DNA of 64,000 bases from Escherichia coli. GTDB taxonomy: Bacteria; Pseudomonadota; Gammaproteobacteria; Enterobacterales; Enterobacteriaceae. Positions 10,265 through 55,281 of the stretch are shown in pieces (the first letter of the stretch is position 1; the number at the start of each line of letters is the position of its first letter). The position numbers were made by a program, and so were the translations under genes. Location: the NCBI RefSeq assembly GCF_036507355.1, contig NZ_AP027877.1. One strand, 5' to 3'. Under the pieces are notes generated by a model, which was given only the letters and a program-made list of their open reading frames with translations, was not told where the DNA came from and did not search any database.

Positions 10265-10357
10265 ATGAATGTTTCCAGTAGAACTGTAGTACTGATAAAT
10301 GTCTTTGCTGCTGGTTTGTTTACTCTTATCTCTATGAGATTTGGCTGGTTTATTTGA
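10265..10357 (+). CDS. yncL: small membrane protein (30 aa)
   Basis: Hand-translated: ATG at 10265, MNVSSRTVVLINVFAAGLFTLISMRFGWFI, stop TGA at 10355-10357; AAGGTGG upstream; matches remembered YncL. Confidence 0.7.
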   Translation: MNVSSRTVVLINVFAAGLFTLISMRFGWFI

Positions 10358-10375
10358 TGTAGTGATTTTGCACGC

Positions 10376-10414
10376 AGCACGTACTGTCAGAGAAATCAAC
10401 TCTCTGACAGTACG
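10376..10414. terminator. 13-bp perfect inverted repeat cgtactgtcagag / ctctgacagtacg immediately 3' of yncL
   Basis: Read directly; no strong U-tract, so function uncertain. Confidence 0.35.
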
Positions 10415-10758
10415 CAAGATCTTCTCATACTCTCCAGGTTTACAACATTATCCTTAATATTTACTTCTTTTTGCTGGCATCTACATTGAAATGAGTAGAA
10501 AACATCCCCCTACTGTCGTCTATACAAACAGCTTACTGATTCAAAGGGAATCTTGTTTTCACATTTTTCTATCATGAATACTTTATACGCGCGGGAGTCT
10601 ATAAATGCTTTATACTTTCAAGGAATAACGTAAATATAAAAAGATGGCGTGAAGTATATGCATGGCAGGATGTTTGCAACCTCCTTGATGACGCTGCCCC
10701 ATTGAAATTGCAAACCCCGCCCTGGTTATCTTGCCCATTTATCATGCAAAACAGATAA

Positions 10759-11568
10759 TTATAGGCCTCTGAATACCTCAGAAAGATTGAATTTTTTATA
10801 GTCCCTCTCTTGAATATTTCCATTTGATATCAATCGATTCATCTCTTCAACAAAATAATTTATATCATCACACTTGTTATTATCCGGAAGATCTGAGTAG
10901 TTATAATTCCACCATTTTATTCTCAACAGTTCATCAATAACATTTGAATCAAACCTAAATCTGATTATTTTTGCAGGAACTCCTGCAACTATGGCATATG
11001 GGGGCACATCTTTGGTAACAACGGAATTGGCAGCAATAACAGCACCATCACCTATTGCGATGCCACCTTTCAATACAACATCATTTCCTATCCAGACATC
11101 ATTTCCTATAATCGGATTTTCAGGTTTGGTAATGAATGGTTTCAATGTCCAGCTACGTTCAAACTCACTCATAGCAAACTTATCAAATTCACCGTTATAA
11201 GTCATCATGTGAGTAGTAAAACGATTCAAAGGATGATTTCCACCCATTATTTTTACATTTGATGCAATACTACAAAATCGACCTATACGTATATTCCCTG
11301 AAAAATGACAGGTCGGAAATGAAAAAGCGCCGACACTGGAGAAATTTTTTACAGGCATTGTTGAATATTCTTCAGCAATAACATTATCTTCAATTGTTAT
11401 CTTGTCACCTTTTGAGAAAAGAAATAAATTCCTTTCTTTATACGACTTCTTCCCCTTATGATTTAAAAAGATTTTATTATCCATACAAAACTCAAAGTGT
11501 TTTTTCGTCCATCTGAAGGTAAGGGTTTTATTTTTATCTTCCGTGAATTTGTACAATTGAACTTTCAT
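10759..11568 (-). CDS. hexapeptide-repeat acyltransferase, XAT-like (Vat/CatB-type xenobiotic acetyltransferase family)
   Basis: 269-aa ORF with ATG at 11566-11568; left-handed beta-helix hexapeptide repeats (IGNDVWIGNDVVLKGGIAIGDGAVIAANSVVTKDVPPYAIVAGVPAKIIRFRF) then WW-containing C-terminus (LRIKWWNYNY); strongly AT-rich compared with flanks. Confidence 0.75.
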   Translation of the reverse strand: MKVQLYKFTEDKNKTLTFRWTKKHFEFCMDNKIFLNHKGKKSYKERNLFLFSKGDKITIEDNVIAEEYSTMPVKNFSSVGAFSFPTCHFSGNIRIGRFCSIASNVKIMGGNHPLNRFTTHMMTYNGEFDKFAMSEFERSWTLKPFITKPENPIIGNDVWIGNDVVLKGGIAIGDGAVIAANSVVTKDVPPYAIVAGVPAKIIRFRFDSNVIDELLRIKWWNYNYSDLPDNNKCDDINYFVEEMNRLISNGNIQERDYKKFNLSEVFRGL

Positions 11569-11777
11569 TGTTAATACTTCTACTTATAAATTATTAATTT
11601 AATAACGATACTCTAAAGCCTTATGCTAATCAACTGTGACAGGATGAAAAATCGCCATCAAACATTTAGCCTAATTTTTACGCTAGTTATTAATGTAATC
11701 ATTCTAATACTTAACCGCCATTAAACTCAGAACCTAAAACGATAGTGGCCGTCCTATAACAGCCACTAACATCTAAC

Positions 11778-34564: not shown

Positions 34565-34603
34565 TACCGTTGTCTCTCGTCTAGGTTTACTCCTGATAGA
34601 AAG

Positions 34604-34630
34604 TCATCGGCATTTGACGGTAATTACTTA
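34604..34630 (-). promoter_or_regulatory. candidate sigma28 (FliA) promoter for trg
   Basis: Minus-strand TAAGTAAT-N11-GCCGATGA resembles the sigma28 consensus TAAAGTTT-N11-GCCGATAA; chemoreceptor genes are class III flagellar genes. Confidence 0.45.
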
Positions 34631-34859
34631 CGACTAAAAGCCTCTTTGCGTCACATTTTTACAACAATTATTGCAGAGAAGATTAATGCCATTGGAATGA
34701 AGAGAGTAACGAATGGTTAAACTGGCTAACCCGAATGACGAAAAATTCTGGAAAACAGCACGCAATTTCGTCAGGTGATTATTTTCGTCCCTAAGGAAAC
34801 CACATAGGATGCTCACGGGTGCCTGAGACTTTCTGTTTTCAGGCTAACCGGGAATCAGA

Positions 34860-34904
34860 AAGACGAAGGCCCCGACCGATATTTCTATCAACCGAGGCCA
34901 ACGA

Positions 34905-34915
<11 letters not shown>
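34860..34915 (-). ncRNA. sokB: antisense RNA SokB of the hokB/mokB toxin locus
   Basis: Placed by remembered architecture of hok/sok loci (antisense RNA overlapping the mok start region); boundaries not readable from sequence alone. Confidence 0.4.
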
Positions 34916-35112
<197 letters not shown>

Positions 35113-35183
35113 GGGCAAGCGCGGGGATTTTCCCCGCGCATCTGACTAGCAGATTCATTTTCTCATGGCACCCCTTTTATACT

Positions 35184-35357
35184 TCAGTTAGTGCATGTTT
35201 TTTTCGATGCACTAATAGAACCATCATTACAGACAAATTTGCCGCCTGCCGTACAGTGTGAGATCCCCCCTTTCGAACCAGAACAGGGTTTGCGCCCGGC
35301 ATCGGCATAAAAGGAAACAAGCGTTCCCATAAACAAAATAAGTGCCAGTTTTTTCAT
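35184..35357 (-). CDS. ydcA: small secreted Cys-containing protein
   Basis: Hand-translated 57 aa from ATG 35357 with GGAGG upstream: MKKLALILFMGTLVSFYADAGRKPCSGSKGGISHCTAGGKFVCNDGSISASKKTCTN. Confidence 0.7.
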   Translation of the reverse strand: MKKLALILFMGTLVSFYADAGRKPCSGSKGGISHCTAGGKFVCNDGSISASKKTCTN

Positions 35358-35601
35358 ATAACCTCCATGGTTTATCGAATCTTATGTTCGATTTGAACGT
35401 TATACGCTGGTTTATTTTGATACCGTTGATGAGATCAAAGATCGGGTGAATTGATTAAAAATAAGCCAGATGGACGTATGGGCAAGGATTATGGTTTTAT
35501 TTGTCATACAAATAAATATAATAGGCGCTTCCGATGTAGACCCGTATTCTTCGCCTGTACCACGGGTCGGTTTTAGTACAGGCGTTTTCTTTAAATATCC
35601 T

Positions 35602-50478: not shown

Positions 50479-50493
50479 GGTAATGACTCCAAC

Positions 50494-50997
50494 TTATTGA
50501 TAGTGTTTTATGTTCAGATAATGCCCGATGACTTTGTCATGCAGCTCCACCGATTTTGAGAACGACAGCGACTTCCGTCCCAGCCGTGCCAGGTGCTGCC
50601 TCAGATTCAGGTTATGCCGCTCAATTCGCTGCGTATATCGCTTGCTGATTACGTGCAGCTTTCCCTTCAGGCGGGATTCATACAGCGGCCAGCCATCCGT
50701 CATCCATATCACCACGTCAAAGGGTGACAGCAGGCTCATAAGATGCCCCAGCGTCGCCATCGTGCGTTCACCGAATACGTGCGCAACAACCGTCTTCCGG
50801 AGCCTGTCATACGCGTAAAACAGCCAGCGCTGGCGCGATTTAGCCCCGACATAGCCCCACTGTTCGTCCATTTCCGCGCAGACGATGACGTCACTGCCCG
50901 GCTGTATGCGCGAGGTTACCGACTGCGGCCTGAGTTTTTTAAGTGACGTAAAATCGTGTTGAGGCCAACGCCCATAATGCGGGCTGTTGCCCGGCAT
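50494..50997 (-). CDS. insB: IS1 InsB (made as InsAB' transposase by -1 frameshift)
   Basis: 167-aa ORF; differs from the second copy at one residue (…[10 protein letters not shown]… versus …[10 protein letters not shown]…). Confidence 0.9.
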
Positions 50998-51191
50998 CCA
51001 ACGCCATTCATGGCCATATCAATGATTTTCTGGTGCGTACCGGGTTGAGAAGCGGTGTAAGTGAACTGCAGTTGCCATGTTTTACGGCAGTGAGAGCAGA
51101 GATAGCGCTGATGTCCGGCGGTGCTTTTGCCGTTACGCACCACCCCGTCAGTAGCTGAACAGGAGGGACAGCTGATAGAAACAGAAGCCAC
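50916..51191 (-). CDS. insA: IS1 InsA (transposition repressor / N-terminal part of transposase)
   Basis: 91-aa [43 protein letters not shown]... Confidence 0.9.
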
Positions 51192-51246
51192 TGGAGCACC
51201 TCAAAAACACCATCATACACTAAATCAGTAAGTTGGCAGCATCACC

Positions 51247-53479
51247 CACGTCGGTATCAGCCGTTTTGTTTGTGTTGCTAAATGCAATCGAACGGCTACT
51301 GTCAAGGTTGTGAACGTCATAACGCAATGCGTTATTCCAGTTCATGCCGTTGTCGAAGGACATCTGATGTTTCAGGCCAAAGAACTGGCTATAACCACCT
51401 GTGACGCCATTATCACCCGCTTTCTGCGCACCATCACCATCGAGACGAGCGATACCGTATTCCAGGCTCATGCTCTGGCTTTCGCTCAGGTCAACGGTTT
51501 TACGCAGTGCCAGCATGTCATACTCGGTGTTATTTCCGAGTTCCTCACGCGGGTCACCTTTCGCCACCACGTTAAAGGCCAGGCCATTGCCCACCTTCGG
51601 CGCGGCATCCGCCAGCATGCTGAAGCGGTTGCTTAACATACGCGCTTCACGGAATACCGTGGTCGCCTGGCTACCGCTCACCTGCTTCAGGGCGCTATTC
51701 AGTTCAGCAGTGGTGCCCACGTTCAGGCTGGTATACAGCTCGTTATTGGTGTAACCCGCATCCAGTGCCTTCGCCACATCGTTCACCGAAGCATCGGTCG
51801 CCACATCGGTGTAGGCGTTTTTGCTCATGATGACGTCAACGTTGCCGCTGGCATCGGTGCTGCCTTTGGCGGTCCATACCACGGACGTTGAGGTGATGGC
51901 ATCGGCGTCGGTCAGGTTGATGCCTTCCACCACGTTGTCGAAACTGACCGTGGTGTCTGCCGTACCGGCGGCGAAACCGGTGTTGATCCCGACACCATTC
52001 ATGCTGGCGTTGTTGACCTTCAGTTTACCGGCGCTGCCGTCAACGTTGGTACCGACGATATAGCCGTTGAGGTTGTTACTGCTGCCATCGCTACTACCGC
52101 TATCAGTCGTTTCACTGAAAGGTGAAGTGGTGTAAGTGTTTGGCATGTCCGGCAACGTGTAGTCGGTGTAATGCACTTCGGTATTGTTACCGCTGTTGCC
52201 GTTCACCCCTTCCACATTCACGCTGTCGCCCTGCTTAATCAACCCCGAACCAGTCACGCCGTCGGCAATCACCACCGTACCGTTGTTAACGATATGACCT
52301 TCTGTGCCCAGTACGCTGAACGCAAACGAGTCGTTAGCAAAAATATTGATCGTGCCGTTGTTCTCAATTACCGCATCGGCGGTGGCATTGGCATCCAGTT
52401 GCATACCAGTCAATCCGGTATCGGTGGTGCCTTCGGTACCGAGATTGATAACACCGTTGTTAACCAGCTGTGCGTTTTTATCGCCTTCCATCGCCACGGC
52501 GTTGTTGCCGCTGATGTTCATTACACCATCGTTGAGAGCAACATAGTTGTTGTGGGTGAATTTAACCGCGCTGGCGTTGTCTTTATCGAAGTTAATTACC
52601 CCGCCATCCTGGTTCCACAAGAAGGCATCGCTTTCTGTCGCACCGGCAGTACTTACCGCCACGGTGACTTTCGCATCCACCACGCCCTTGTTAATAAACT
52701 GGCTGGCGCCATCGTCATAGTGAATAGCGCCCGCACCTAATGCGGCATCCAGCGTCATTTCACCGGTGTTATATAACGTGGCGTTAGCATTGCTGCCCTG
52801 GAAGCGAATGGCGTTTTTGCTGTTATCAAGGATGAGTTTGCCGCTGTTGTTGAACGTTGACTTATCGTCAATATCCAGCGTCCCGGCATTGTTGTTTTCA
52901 TCCTGATAACCCATTTTCCAGGTACCCGCGTTATTCACTACCGCAGAGTTATAGAGAATCGCGCCTTTACGCGCCTCGCCGCCTGCAAGGTTATTGAATA
53001 CCGCATCGCCCTGAGCGTTAACGCGCGCCGACGCAATACCGCTGTTATTCACCGTACCATCGTGAAGTTGTAAAGTTGACAGGGAACCGGTGTTATTAAT
53101 TACCGCGTTGCTGTTTTTCTCAATTTTTACGACGTCATTAAGCGTTCCGTTGTTATTGAAGGTCCCTCCTTCCAAAGTCACCGTGTTCAATACACCTTCA
53201 TTGGTTAACGCACCGCCTGCATTCACGACGATGGCTGAGCTAATGGTTCCGCTCGACTCGTTAACCAGCGCACCATTTTCGAGTATCCTGATCGTTCCAT
53301 TTTTAACAGCACCCGCACTGGTGACATCCCCGTTGATAATCGCACCAGACGATAATAATACGGTCTCACCCGCAGAACTTAATACATCGCCATCATCATA
53401 CAAATCGGCGATATAATTATCCGTCGGATTATATTCATCGGCCCCCTGGCAAACCCCAAAGGTACAAATGGTGCCATAG
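51247..53479 (-). pseudogene. ydbA: internal fragment of an autotransporter adhesin gene (ydbA-like), both ends cut by IS1
   Basis: 757-codon ORF with no native start or stop (frame runs into both IS1 ends); N/G/T/S-rich beta-helix repeats of a passenger domain, then the start of a beta-barrel translocator domain. Confidence 0.7.
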
Positions 53480-53534
53480 GGTGATGCTGCCAACTTACTG
53501 ATTTAGTGTATGATGGTGTTTTTGAGGTGCTCCA

Positions 53535-53810
53535 GTGGCTTCTGTTTCTATCAGCTGTCCCTCCTGTTCAGCTACTGACGGGGTGGTGCGTAACGGCAAA
53601 AGCACCGCCGGACATCAGCGCTATCTCTGCTCTCACTGCCGTAAAACATGGCAACTGCAGTTCACTTACACCGCTTCTCAACCCGGTACGCACCAGAAAA
53701 TCATTGATATGGCCATGAATGGCGTTGGATGCCGGGCAACAGCCCGCATTATGGGCGTTGGCCTCAACACGATTTTACGTCACTTAAAAAACTCAGGCCG
53801 CAGTCGGTAA
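53535..53810 (+). CDS. insA: IS1 InsA
   Basis: 91-aa ORF identical in protein sequence to the other IS1 copy. Confidence 0.9.
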
Positions 53811-54232
53811 CCTCGCGCATACAGCCGGGCAGTGACGTCATCGTCTGCGCGGAAATGGACGAACAGTGGGGCTATGTCGGGGCTAAATCGCGCCAGCGCT
53901 GGCTGTTTTACGCGTATGACAGGCTCCGGAAGACGGTTGTTGCGCACGTATTCGGTGAACGCACGATGGCGACGCTGGGGCGTCTTATGAGCCTGCTGTC
54001 ACCCTTTGACGTGGTGATATGGATGACGGATGGCTGGCCGCTGTATGAATCCCGCCTGAAGGGAAAGCTGCACGTAATCAGCAAGCGATATACGCAGCGA
54101 ATTGAGCGGCATAACCTGAATCTGAGGCAGCACCTGGCACGGCTGGGACGGAAGTCGCTGTCGTTCTCAAAATCGGTGGAGCTGCATGACAAAGTCATCG
54201 GGCATTATCTGAACATAAAACACTATCAATAA
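53729..54232 (+). CDS. insB: IS1 InsB
   Basis: 167-aa ORF. Confidence 0.9.
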
Positions 54233-54764
54233 GTTGGAGTCATTACCCTGGACTTACGTGTTTTTTCGGTTGAGTCGGGTATTGAAGTATCCGCAGCCCA
54301 TGTCTGGCTACTTAACGCCATGGCAACACAAACAGACAATAATTTTTTCCTTTGCATATAAAATTCCTTAGATCTAGACCGTGCGTAACAAGCCATGCAG
54401 AATTTGAAGATAAATCGTAGTAAATATTCATAGTGAAATAAGCAATAAAGAAATGCTTATATAATTCACAAAATCAATATTAAAATCAGGCAAGTAAAAG
54501 CATACAAAAAAACAGTTGATGGAATTATATTCCACAAAAAACTCACTTCAATCTAAAAATTAACGACAAAAAACAAAAACACACTAATAATTCATTGACG
54601 CTGCATATATATTTTGTGATTACATATATATTGGTAATGATTTGTTATTTAAGGGAAGGATATATAAGGTTTTTGTAGAAATATCCACGGTAATTAAGCA
54701 TGCTAACGTCAGTTTAAATACTGTAAAAGATCATTAATAGATACATTTTGTAGCCAACTATAAT

Positions 54765-55091
54765 TTATTTGCGCAACCATTTACCATTAATTCCCTGAAC
54801 ATATTGCCCCGACTTCGCGCGAGCAACAAGCTTTTGTCCAGCCAGTTTGGCTATCTCTTTAGTGGATACATTATTTTGCTTTGCCAGTTGTTGGTAACTA
54901 TGGTTACGAGCTTCATTAATATCTTTTACTAATGCCTGTGTTTCGGCATCCGTTTGTAGCGCCACCAGGTAACCGTTAAGCGTTTCACCTACCCGCCCCT
55001 GACTTCTGGCTTCGTTCAGGGTTAAAGCCATTGCACTGTCGCTCATCAGGCCAATGGCCCATACAGCTATGAGTAATGTTCTTTTCATCAT
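54765..55091 (-). CDS. ydbL: periplasmic protein (DUF1318)
   Basis: ORF 54765-55169; ATG at 55091 (MMKRTLLIAVWAIGLMSDSAMA...) gives about 108 aa with signal peptide. Confidence 0.75.
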   Translation of the reverse strand: MMKRTLLIAVWAIGLMSDSAMALTLNEARSQGRVGETLNGYLVALQTDAETQALVKDINEARNHSYQQLAKQNNVSTKEIAKLAGQKLVARAKSGQYVQGINGKWLRK

Positions 55092-55095
55092 CACC

Positions 55096-55281
55096 TCAAA
55101 ATAGATCGCTACGGGTTTTGAGCAGGTCTTCAACGTCCTTATCCGCTTTAATGATGATTTCATGCTCAATTTTAACGTTCATATTAATGGTGATTGGCTC
55201 TTTCGGCGCAGCCACTTCAATGCGAGGCGTGCAACCAACCAACATAAAAGAGGACGCAAACGCGGCTATCACTATTTTCAT
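55096..55281 (-). CDS. ynbE: small lipoprotein
   Basis: 61-aa ORF with lipobox MLVGC. Confidence 0.75.
   Translation of the reverse strand: MKIVIAAFASSFMLVGCTPRIEVAAPKEPITINMNVKIEHEIIIKADKDVEDLLKTRSDLF

What the first reader, a model, noticed from the sequence alone, without database searches (positions are those of the whole stretch)
54248..54764. 517-bp AT-rich, ORF-free spacer between IS1 and ydbL with alternating AT/TA palindromic tracts
This is the longest non-coding stretch in the window. It is very AT-rich and contains near-palindromic tracts such as catatatattttgtgattacatatatatt. It may be a curved, H-NS-bound regulatory region or the remnant of a deleted neighbour. It would receive any outward transcription from the adjacent IS1.
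Basis: seen in the sequence. Interest (0 to 1): 0.3.

Follow-up and report, generated by a model that had tools for sequence, protein, structure and literature searches.

The report
Ordinary ydbL–ydbA spacer beside IS1
The AT-rich stretch is the normal gap between ydbL and the surface-protein gene ydbA, plus the first 110 bases of ydbA, which an IS1 element has cut off; the same spacer occurs in hundreds of E. coli genomes with no IS1 there, so it is ordinary.

Summary
The coordinates, the AT-richness and the absence of long ORFs are real. IS1 ends at 54247 and the ydbL stop codon starts at 54765. The stretch is not one non-coding spacer.

- **54248-54357 (- strand):** the first 36 codons (signal peptide) of a BigA/YdbA-type autotransporter gene, cut off by IS1.
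- **54358-54764 (407 bp, 26.8% GC):** the native ydbL–ydbA intergenic region.

The same 517 bp, at 95-99.8% identity, lies next to ydbL in 374 of 5426 complete E. coli genomes, including O157:H7. In every one examined it runs straight into ydbA with no IS1 at that junction.

IS1 has no target-site duplication, and 3042 bp of ydbA are missing next to it. This is an IS1-associated deletion. A second, inverted IS1 (50479-51246) removes the 3' end of ydbA, pdxI and part of ydbD.

The AT/TA tracts are within chance for this composition. No Rfam family, stable RNA fold or plasmid/phage homology was found.

The spacer most likely carries the ydbA promoter, predicted at 54551-54524, and is now orphaned. 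H-NS binding is plausible from the AT content and predicted curvature but is untested. Interest is low.

The parts
53480..54247 (+). IS1 copy (768 bp), with insA and insB' on the + strand. It has no target-site duplication: the left flank is ...GTGCCATAG and the right flank is CTGGACTTA...
   Evidence: Sequence and ORFs. 98.8-99% identical to annotated IS1A/IS1B elements. Flank comparison.
54248..54357 (-). 5' stump of the ydbA (BigA/YdbA-family autotransporter) gene. ATG at 54357; 36 codons plus 2 nt encode the signal peptide MQRKKLLSVCVAMALSSQTWA/ADTS... It runs into IS1 as a 43-aa chimeric ORF.
   Evidence: The annotated CDS start in the IS1-free strains 14EC033 and 48 maps to window 54357. 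Translation. The intact homologues carry the Pfam families BigA_N, BigA_3rd, BigA_4th and BigA_beta.
54358..54764 (.). Native ydbL–ydbA intergenic region: 407 bp, 26.8% GC.
   Evidence: Present at 95-99.8% identity between ydbL and ydbA in 374 of 5426 complete E. coli genomes. Nearly invariant in 13 fetched loci. 99.3% identical in Escherichia sp. E1V33. GC content.
54365..54369 (-). Shine-Dalgarno-like AAGGA, 7 nt upstream of the ydbA ATG.
   Evidence: Read directly from the - strand sequence. The block GAGGAA/AAGGAA is kept in the other ydbA allele types.
54524..54551 (-). Predicted sigma-70 promoter of ydbA: -35 TTGAAG (54551-54546), 16-nt spacer, -10 TATAAT (54529-54524). It implies a start near 54517 and a leader of about 160 nt.
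   Evidence: Consensus scan, 10 of 12 matches. All four mutually unalignable ydbA upstream types have a sense-strand promoter-like site starting 176-194 nt before the ATG. Only 0.3% (relaxed criteria) to 1.7% (strict criteria) of shuffles match this. Predicted, not measured.
54604..54632 (.). The quoted AT/TA tract: CATATATATT twice, 19 nt apart.
   Evidence: families D4 and I9. Not beyond shuffle expectation.
54661..54780 (.). Predicted intrinsically curved segment. A second one lies at 54481-54600.
   Evidence: Wedge-model path, with parameters recalled from Bolshoy et al. 1991. These are the 0.1 and 1.5 percentiles of all 120-bp stretches of the window.
54765..55088 (-). ydbL (DUF1318), the last gene of the ydbH-ynbE-ydbL cluster. 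Its stop codon abuts the spacer.
   Evidence: ORF. Identical protein annotated as 'YdbL family protein' with Pfam PF07027.
51247..53479 (-). Internal fragment of ydbA, nt 3153-5385 of the 5865-nt gene of strain 14EC033. ydbA nt 111-3152 (3042 bp) are missing between this fragment and the 5' stump.
   Evidence: BLAST against L001: window 51247-53479 matches L001 3726-5958, and window 54248 onwards matches L001 9001 onwards.
50479..51246 (-). Second IS1, inverted relative to the first and 99.87% identical to it. It has no target-site duplication. Next to it the last 480 nt of ydbA, pdxI and the 5' 1.4 kb of ydbD are missing, about 3.03 kb relative to strain 48.

Best explanation
The 517 bp consist of two ordinary pieces.

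- **Coding stump (shown).** 54248-54357 is the 5' stump (signal-peptide codons 1-36) of ydbA, a BigA/YdbA-family autotransporter gene on the - strand. It ends at the edge of an IS1.
- **Native spacer (shown).** 54358-54764 is the native 407-bp AT-rich spacer between the stop codon of ydbL and the start codon of ydbA. This arrangement occurs in the minority of E. coli lineages that lack the feaRB-tynA-paa cluster between the two genes.
- **Promoter and leader (inferred).** The spacer carries the ydbA promoter, predicted as -35 TTGAAG 54551-54546 and -10 TATAAT 54529-54524, with a start near 54517 and a leader of about 160 nt.
- **H-NS (inferred).** The AT content and predicted curvature make the spacer a likely H-NS target, as for other AT-rich surface-protein genes.
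- **State in this genome (inferred).** The spacer is an orphan. ydbA has been destroyed by two IS1-associated deletions (nt 111-3152 at this IS1; the last 480 nt plus pdxI and part of ydbD at the second, inverted IS1). Any transcription from the promoter would run antisense into IS1.

IS1 did not make the spacer. It only defines its left edge.
For: - **Boundaries and frame:**
- **Same spacer in IS1-free genomes.** It sits next to ydbL and continues into ydbA in 14EC033, strain 48 and O157:H7 TW14359, where the CDS start maps to window 54357. It is present in 374 of 5426 complete genomes. It was also found in 10 further loci via the exact YdbL protein, with a 407-408-bp gap and then a 1901-1961-aa BigA-type protein where the gene is intact. 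It is nearly invariant among 14 sequences.
- **Deletion signature.** There is no target-site duplication, and 3042 bp are missing relative to L001. The literature attributes a missing duplication to adjacent deletion or IS-IS recombination (PMC11708052).
- **Other paa-less lineages.** They also have a 400-430-bp AT-rich gap between ydbL and ydbA.
- **Promoter.** The site scores 10 of 12. Promoter-like sites in all four upstream types coincide in position, with shuffle fractions of 0.003-0.017.
- **AT-richness and curvature:**
- **No competing element.** Rfam finds nothing. Fold z-scores are +0.58 and -0.03. There is no plasmid or phage homology.
- **Published context.** The region between ydbL and ynbC is already described as a region of genomic heterogeneity, with ydbA often a pseudogene (PMC4951805).
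Against: - The promoter is only a consensus match. The number of promoter-like sites in the region (4) is no higher than in shuffles (3.1 +/- 2.1), and the positional-coincidence test was devised after seeing the data.
- No transcription-start or H-NS occupancy data for this spacer type were found.
- No intrinsic terminator for ydbL was predicted on the - strand, so how the ydbH-ynbE-ydbL transcript ends is unknown. Read-through into ydbA cannot be excluded.
- The curvature parameters and the H-NS 10-mer were recalled from memory.
Confidence: 0.85

Rival explanations
1. The spacer is a scar: non-coding DNA left behind or assembled by IS1-mediated deletion of a neighbouring gene.
For: IS1 abuts it without a target-site duplication, and 3 kb of the neighbouring ydbA are missing. 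The left 110 bp really are a gene stump.
Against: The 407 bp between the ydbA ATG and ydbL are collinear and 95-99.8% identical in 374 complete genomes. In all those examined they run into ydbA without IS1.
Confidence: 0.05
2. The spacer is the 'empty site' of the feaRB-tynA-paa island. It would be the ancestral junction into which that 19-kb cluster inserted in K-12-like strains, or from which it was deleted.
For: In K-12 the cluster lies exactly between ydbL and ydbA. The K-12-type ydbL-feaR spacer occurs in 4690 of 5426 genomes and the window type in 374.
Against: Neither K-12 flank (ydbL-feaR, 171 bp; paaY-ydbA, 330 bp) shows any homology to the spacer beyond the coding ends. ydbL, ynbE and the 3' end of ydbH are themselves only 62-92% identical between the two types. 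The difference is therefore a whole divergent haplotype, not a clean insertion or deletion.
Confidence: 0.08
3. The spacer hides an independent functional element, such as a small RNA, a small protein like K-12 ynbG, or a structured leader.
For: K-12 has the 21-aa ynbG in the analogous paaY-ydbA spacer. The predicted leader of about 160 nt is long. Short ORFs of 26-39 aa exist in the spacer.
Against: - Rfam finds nothing at permissive thresholds.
- Folding energies equal those of shuffles.
- No ynbG-like peptide appears in any frame.
- No sequence block is shared among the four upstream types beyond chance.
- RefSeq annotates nothing there in the genomes inspected.
Confidence: 0.05
4. The spacer matters mainly as a recipient of IS1-driven outward transcription, through read-through or a hybrid promoter. 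That would give antisense RNA to ydbL.
For: The IS1 transposase genes read towards the spacer. IS1 is known to create fusion promoters at some insertion sites (Prentki et al. 1986, cited in PMC9330008).
Against: No + strand promoter-like site was found at or near the IS1 end. The TTGGAG hexamer near the IS1 end is followed, 16-18 nt on, by TACGTG, ACGTGT or CGTGTT, none of which resembles a -10 (read). That IS1 insertions are polar is recalled knowledge.
Confidence: 0.03

Closest known systems
ydbL–ydbA intergenic region of E. coli O157:H7 and other paa-less E. coli (for example TW14359 NC_013008.1 1897272-1897794; strain 14EC033 NZ_CP024147.1 2225002-2225518)
   Same: Same sequence at 98.3-99.8% identity, same neighbours and same orientation. 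The ydbA ATG lies at the equivalent of window 54357.
   Different: In those genomes the spacer runs into a full-length ydbA, or one split by a frameshift. Here ydbA is cut 110 nt after the ATG by IS1. O157:H7 also has a 5-nt TAATG insertion at 54737 and one extra T in the T-run at 54506-54513.
K-12 paaY–ydbA intergenic region (with ynbG) and the IS2/IS30-disrupted ydbA pseudogene
   Same: An AT-rich (about 31% GC) upstream region of about 330 bp before a ydbA allele. It has a promoter-like site 193 nt before the ATG, against 194 nt here. The ydbA gene is likewise inactivated by insertion sequences.
   Different: There is no alignable sequence apart from about 12 nt before the ATG and the signal-peptide codons, which are 72% identical. 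The upstream neighbour is paaY, not ydbL. No ynbG homologue is present. The elements are IS2 and IS30 rather than IS1.
IS-associated deletions (adjacent deletion or recombination between two IS copies)
   Same: IS1 is retained at the deletion boundary, there is no 8-9-bp target duplication, and a contiguous 3042-bp block is missing relative to IS-free relatives (PMC11708052).
   Different: The structure alone cannot say which of the two routes produced it. The exact junction was not found in any of 5426 complete E. coli genomes.
AT-rich, H-NS-silenced upstream regions of horizontally variable surface-protein genes
   Same: 73% AT over 407 bp, predicted curvature, location upstream of a large and frequently pseudogenised adhesin-type gene, and membership of a haplotype exchanged between Escherichia species.
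   Different: H-NS occupancy or derepression in an hns mutant has not been shown for this spacer. None could be found in the searchable literature.

Membership tests
Native ydbL–ydbA intergenic / ydbA upstream region | Lies between the ydbL stop codon and the start codon of a ydbA orthologue | tested here: met
   ydbL stop at 54765. The annotated ydbA start of IS1-free relatives maps to 54357.
Native ydbL–ydbA intergenic / ydbA upstream region | Same sequence in the same place in genomes without the adjacent IS1 | tested here: met
   374 of 5426 complete genomes at 95-99.8% identity. 13 fetched loci are nearly invariant. Escherichia sp. E1V33 is 99.3% identical.
Native ydbL–ydbA intergenic / ydbA upstream region | Contains an active promoter for ydbA | not testable with these tools
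   Only a consensus site at 54551-54524 and positional coincidence across allele types.
Simple IS1 insertion | 8-9-bp direct duplication of the target on both sides of the element | tested here: not met
   The flanks are GTGCCATAG and CTGGACTTA. The second IS1 has TATTAGATC and CACGTCGGT.
IS1-associated deletion | IS retained at the boundary and a contiguous block missing relative to IS-free relatives | tested here: met
   L001 5959-9000 (3042 bp, ydbA nt 111-3152) is absent at the IS1 position.
H-NS-bound curved AT-rich DNA | AT content far above the genome average over hundreds of bp | tested here: met
   26.8% GC against 49.4% for the window. It holds the lowest-GC 407-bp stretch of the window.
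H-NS-bound curved AT-rich DNA | Intrinsic curvature | tested here: inconclusive
   The wedge model places 54661-54780 and 54481-54600 at the 0.1 and 1.5 percentiles of the window. This is a prediction only, and the parameters were recalled from memory.
H-NS-bound curved AT-rich DNA | H-NS occupancy, or derepression in an hns mutant | not testable with these tools
   No data were found for this spacer type.
Known non-coding RNA or structured RNA element | Match to an Rfam family, or a fold more stable than shuffled sequence | tested here: not met
   The only Rfam match is a chance miRNA hit at E = 9.7, and nothing reaches a gathering score. Fold z-scores are +0.58 and -0.03.
Non-random palindromic or alternating AT/TA tracts | Tract length, number or local repeat beyond what the composition gives | tested here: not met
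   1000 dinucleotide shuffles give fractions at or above the observed value of 0.127, 0.055 and 0.109.
IS1 hybrid (fusion) outward promoter | A -35 in the IS1 end with a suitably spaced -10 in the flank | tested here: not met
   No + strand site near 54230-54270 in the scan. The hexamers at the right spacing are TACGTG, ACGTGT and CGTGTT.
Mobile-element remnant (plasmid or phage origin) | Homology to plasmid or phage records | tested here: not met
   No match in 72,556 plasmids or 50,697 phages at blastn sensitivity.

The most novel reading that the evidence does not exclude
The spacer may belong to a trans-species haplotype cassette: the 3' 420 nt of ydbH, ynbE, ydbL, the spacer and ydbA. This cassette moves between Escherichia species by homologous recombination. 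In the novel reading, the AT-rich spacer serves as a recurrent endpoint for independent IS1-associated deletions that always spare the ydbH-ynbE-ydbL lipid-transport cluster. It would also contain a positionally conserved ydbA promoter about 190 nt upstream of the ATG, although the sequence has turned over completely between allele types. That would make it a useful small model for promoter turnover and for selection shaping IS deletion boundaries.
Probability: 0.1. Interest if true: 0.3.

Novelty: already known. Interest (0 to 1): 0.08.

Why it matters
It matters little. The result corrects an annotation-level reading. The 'spacer' is a gene stump plus a standard intergenic region already present in hundreds of sequenced genomes, and ydbA is one more autotransporter pseudogene made by insertion sequences.

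The modest points of value are these:
- The ydbA gene of this strain is irreversibly inactivated by two IS1-associated deletions.
- The ydbL-proximal side of this variable region has been hit independently by IS1 in at least three other strains.
- The ynbE-ydbL-spacer-ydbA block is a deeply divergent haplotype shared almost identically with another Escherichia species. This may interest people working on YdbH/YnbE/YdbL lipid transport, because YnbE and YdbL vary together.

Tried and rejected
- **Exact IS1/ydbA junction in complete E. coli genomes.** Not found. The best hits cover 86% of the query and have a different spacing. The source genome is not in the collection; the best flank identity is 99.6%. 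The window's exact YdbH protein is recorded as E. coli. The contigs fetched with it were no closer, at 99.2-99.3%.
- **Exact look-up of the 43-aa chimeric ORF.** Not on record.
- **Homology of the spacer to the K-12 ydbL-feaR and paaY-ydbA spacers.** None beyond the coding ends.
- **Conserved blocks among the four ydbA upstream types.** A MAFFT alignment suggested a shared TTGTGAATTATA block. A best-shared-k-mer test against shuffles showed this is at chance level, with fractions of 0.37-0.76, so it was rejected.
- **ynbG-like small protein.** None.
- **RNA families and structure.** Nothing.
- **ydbL terminator.** No intrinsic terminator-like site on the - strand.
- **Inversion between the two inverted IS1 copies.** Rejected. 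The ydbA fragment between them is collinear with the reference, and the flanks do not pair as swapped duplications.
- **Plasmid or phage origin.** No match.
- **Literature on H-NS or transcription starts at ydbA.** The only ydbA/H-NS paper (PMC5811629) reports raised ydbA transcript in an rpoZ mutant of K-12 but no H-NS data for ydbA. The O157 locus tags I guessed returned only noise. A search for H-NS ChIP-seq in EDL933 found nothing relevant.

Full report
**1. The observation**

IS1 (768 bp, with insA and insB' on the + strand) occupies 53480-54247. The stop codon of ydbL, on the - strand, begins at 54765. The interval 54248-54764 is therefore correctly delimited.

- **Composition.** The interval is strongly AT-rich. 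Sliding GC falls to 0.24-0.30. GC is 30.4% for the 517 bp and 26.8% for 54358-54764, against 49.4% for the window. It contains the lowest-GC 407-bp stretch of the window.
- **ORFs.** No ORF of 60 aa or more overlaps it. By that mechanical criterion, 54233-54764 is the longest ORF-free gap inside the window. The edge gap 1-594 is longer. With an 80-aa threshold, 34565-35601 is longer, but that stretch holds sok and rydC.
- **The quoted tract.** It is present at 54604-54632, as CATATATATT twice, 19 nt apart. In 1000 dinucleotide-preserving shuffles of the 407 bp, a fraction of 0.127 reached the longest alternating run, 0.055 the number of (AT)4 tracts, and 0.109 the longest local repeat. The tracts are real but are what this composition gives.

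**2. What it is**

The same 517 bp occur at 95-99.8% identity in 374 of 5426 complete E. coli genomes, always on the chromosome. Three of these were inspected: strain 14EC033, strain 48 and O157:H7 TW14359. In each, the sequence lies between ydbL and a large gene annotated as an autotransporter, 'BigA/YdbA N-terminal beta-barrel domain-containing protein'. In O157:H7 that gene is split in two. In all three, the CDS start maps to window 54357.

Ten further loci were retrieved through the exact YdbL protein. Where the downstream gene is intact they show the same layout: a gap of 407-408 bp, then a protein of 1901-1961 aa with the Pfam families BigA_N, BigA_3rd, BigA_4th and BigA_beta.

The interval therefore has two parts:
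- **54248-54357 (- strand)** holds the first 36 codons plus 2 nt of ydbA. This is a typical signal peptide, MQRKKLLSVCVAMALSSQTWA/AD..., preceded by AAGGA. It runs on into IS1 as a 43-aa chimeric ORF.
- **54358-54764** is the native 407-bp ydbL–ydbA intergenic region.

**3. What IS1 did**

The element has no target-site duplication. Its flanks are GTGCCATAG and CTGGACTTA. Relative to 14EC033, the DNA to its left resumes at ydbA nt 3153, so ydbA nt 111-3152 (3042 bp) are missing.

A second IS1 lies at 50479-51246. It is inverted relative to the first, 99.87% identical to it, and also has no duplication. It abuts ydbA nt 5385 on one side and ydbD on the other. The last 480 nt of ydbA, pdxI and about 1.4 kb of ydbD are missing there.

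The ydbA fragment between the two elements is collinear with the reference, so no inversion has occurred. An IS that lacks its duplication and sits at the edge of a missing block is the recognised signature of adjacent deletion or of recombination between two IS copies (PMC11708052). The structure cannot distinguish the two routes. The exact junction is absent from the 5426 complete genomes.

**4. Wider context**

In K-12 the 19-kb feaRB-tynA-paa cluster lies between ydbL and ydbA, and ydbA is itself broken by IS2 and IS30. The frequencies of the arrangements in the 5426 complete genomes are:

| Spacer type | Genomes |
|---|---|
| K-12-type ydbL-feaR | 4690 |
| Window-type ydbL-ydbA | 374 |
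| SCU-313-type ydbL-ydbA | 142 |
| AR_0067-type ydbL-ydbA | 115 |

The last two types are also 400-430 bp long and AT-rich. The four ydbA upstream regions cannot be aligned, apart from the ribosome-binding site and the signal-peptide codons, which are 72-79% identical.

The region from ydbL to ynbC has been described in print as a region of genomic heterogeneity, with full-length ydbA in only about 42% of phylogroup A (PMC4951805).

**5. How it most likely works**

*Shown:* the spacer is the upstream region of ydbA.

*Inferred:* it carries the ydbA promoter.
- The best sense-strand consensus site is TTGAAG-16-TATAAT at 54551-54524, with 10 of 12 matches. It predicts a start near 54517 and a leader of about 160 nt.
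- On its own this is weak, because the region has 4 promoter-like sites against 3.1 +/- 2.1 in shuffles.
- However, all four unalignable upstream types have a sense-strand promoter-like site whose -35 starts 176-194 nt before the ATG. Only 0.3% of shuffles (all four within 18 nt, relaxed criteria) or 1.7% (three within 10 nt, strict criteria) match this. This test was devised after seeing the data.

*H-NS binding is plausible but untested.*
- The spacer is 73% AT.
- It has four matches with 2 mismatches or fewer to the H-NS 10-mer, against 0.62 expected for a uniform distribution. This largely restates the AT content.
- A wedge-model path places 54661-54780 and 54481-54600 at the 0.1 and 1.5 percentiles of curvature in the window. 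The parameters were recalled from memory.
- No H-NS or transcription-start data for this spacer type were found.

In this genome the promoter region is orphaned. Any transcript would run 270 nt and then enter IS1 antisense to insB'.

However, no + strand promoter-like site lies at the IS1 end, and the hexamers spaced 16-18 nt after the TTGGAG near the IS1 end are not -10-like. IS1 fusion promoters are known elsewhere.

**6. Alternatives examined**

- **Independent RNA or small-protein element.** Rfam finds nothing. Folds are no more stable than shuffles. There is no ynbG-like peptide. No sequence block is shared among the allele types beyond chance.
- **Mobile-element remnant.** There is no plasmid or phage homology.
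- **Empty site of the paa island.** This cannot be shown. The K-12 flanks share nothing with the spacer, and the neighbouring genes themselves belong to a divergent haplotype.

**7. Side observations**

- **A divergent, trans-species haplotype.** From about 55,700 (the last 420 nt of ydbH) through ynbE, ydbL and the spacer into ydbA, the window is only 62-92% identical to the K-12, SCU-313 and AR_0067 types. Over the same block it is 99-100% identical to Escherichia sp. E1V33, a separate GTDB species whose ydbH is otherwise 83-91% identical. The spacer is therefore part of a haplotype exchanged between species.
- **Repeated IS1 events near ydbL.** Three other strains carry independent IS1 events at or near the ydbL-proximal edge. 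All of them spare ydbL.
  - CUWW06: junction at window 54449, 92 nt upstream of the ATG, with a deletion reaching ydbD.
  - Locus L011: IS1 250 nt into ydbA, with a deletion reaching ynbD.
  - 14EC033: IS1 in ydbD.

**8. Verdict**

This is a real but ordinary feature: a gene stump plus a standard, already sequenced and annotated intergenic region, bounded by a routine IS1-associated deletion. Interest is low.

Noticed in passing
window 50479-51246: A second IS1 copy, inverted relative to the one at 53480-54247 and 99.87% identical to it. It also lacks a target-site duplication. It joins ydbA nt 5385 to the middle of ydbD, so the ydbA 3' end (480 nt), pdxI and about 1.4 kb of ydbD are missing. 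The two IS1 copies bracket a 2233-bp internal ydbA fragment (51247-53479).
   Followed up: partly
window ~54248-55700 (3' end of ydbH, ynbE, ydbL, spacer, ydbA 5' end); L025: This block is a deeply divergent haplotype, only 62-92% identical to the K-12, SCU-313 and AR_0067 types, while the rest of ydbH is 95-100% identical to the SCU-313 and AR_0067 types (K-12 was not compared there). The same block is 99-100% identical in Escherichia sp. E1V33, whose ydbH is otherwise only 83-91% identical. This indicates recent recombination across species with a breakpoint near 55,665-55,700. YnbE and YdbL, functional partners of YdbH, vary together.
   Followed up: partly
L007 (CUWW06) 5233-6000; L011 6982-7749; L001 (14EC033) 36-803: Independent IS1 events at the same locus in other E. 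coli. CUWW06 has IS1 joined to the spacer at window 54449, with ydbA, pdxI and part of ydbD deleted. L011 has IS1 250 nt into ydbA, with a deletion reaching ynbD. 14EC033 has IS1 inside ydbD. ydbL is spared in every case.
   Followed up: partly
window 54524-54551; L005 ~6286; L006 6294-6266; L004 20200-20227: All four mutually unalignable ydbA upstream regions carry a sense-strand sigma-70-like site whose -35 starts 176-194 nt before the ATG. Only 0.3-1.7% of shuffles match this. It hints at a positionally conserved promoter despite complete sequence turnover. The test was post hoc.
   Followed up: yes
window 54506-54513 and 54737: Length polymorphism of a T/A homopolymer run (6-8 nt) just downstream of the predicted -10, and a 5-nt TAATG insertion in O157:H7. 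These are the only indels among 14 copies of the spacer.
   Followed up: no
window 63729-63849 (-), 34817-34968 (+), 35528-35591 (+): Rfam matches above the gathering score: MicC, sok (of a hok/sok locus) and RydC. They account for other ORF-poor stretches of the window.
   Followed up: no
window 11340-11746 and 9661-10758: The second-lowest-GC stretch of the window (28.3% GC over 407 bp) and an adjacent stretch of about 1.1 kb without ORFs of 100 aa or more. Neither was examined.
   Followed up: no
window 51247-53479 versus L001, L002, L018-L023: The ydbA passenger-domain fragment is mosaic among strains that share the spacer. It is 98% identical to 14EC033, 96% to L022 and only 91-93% to the others, with indels. 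This suggests recombination or diversifying change inside ydbA.
   Followed up: no
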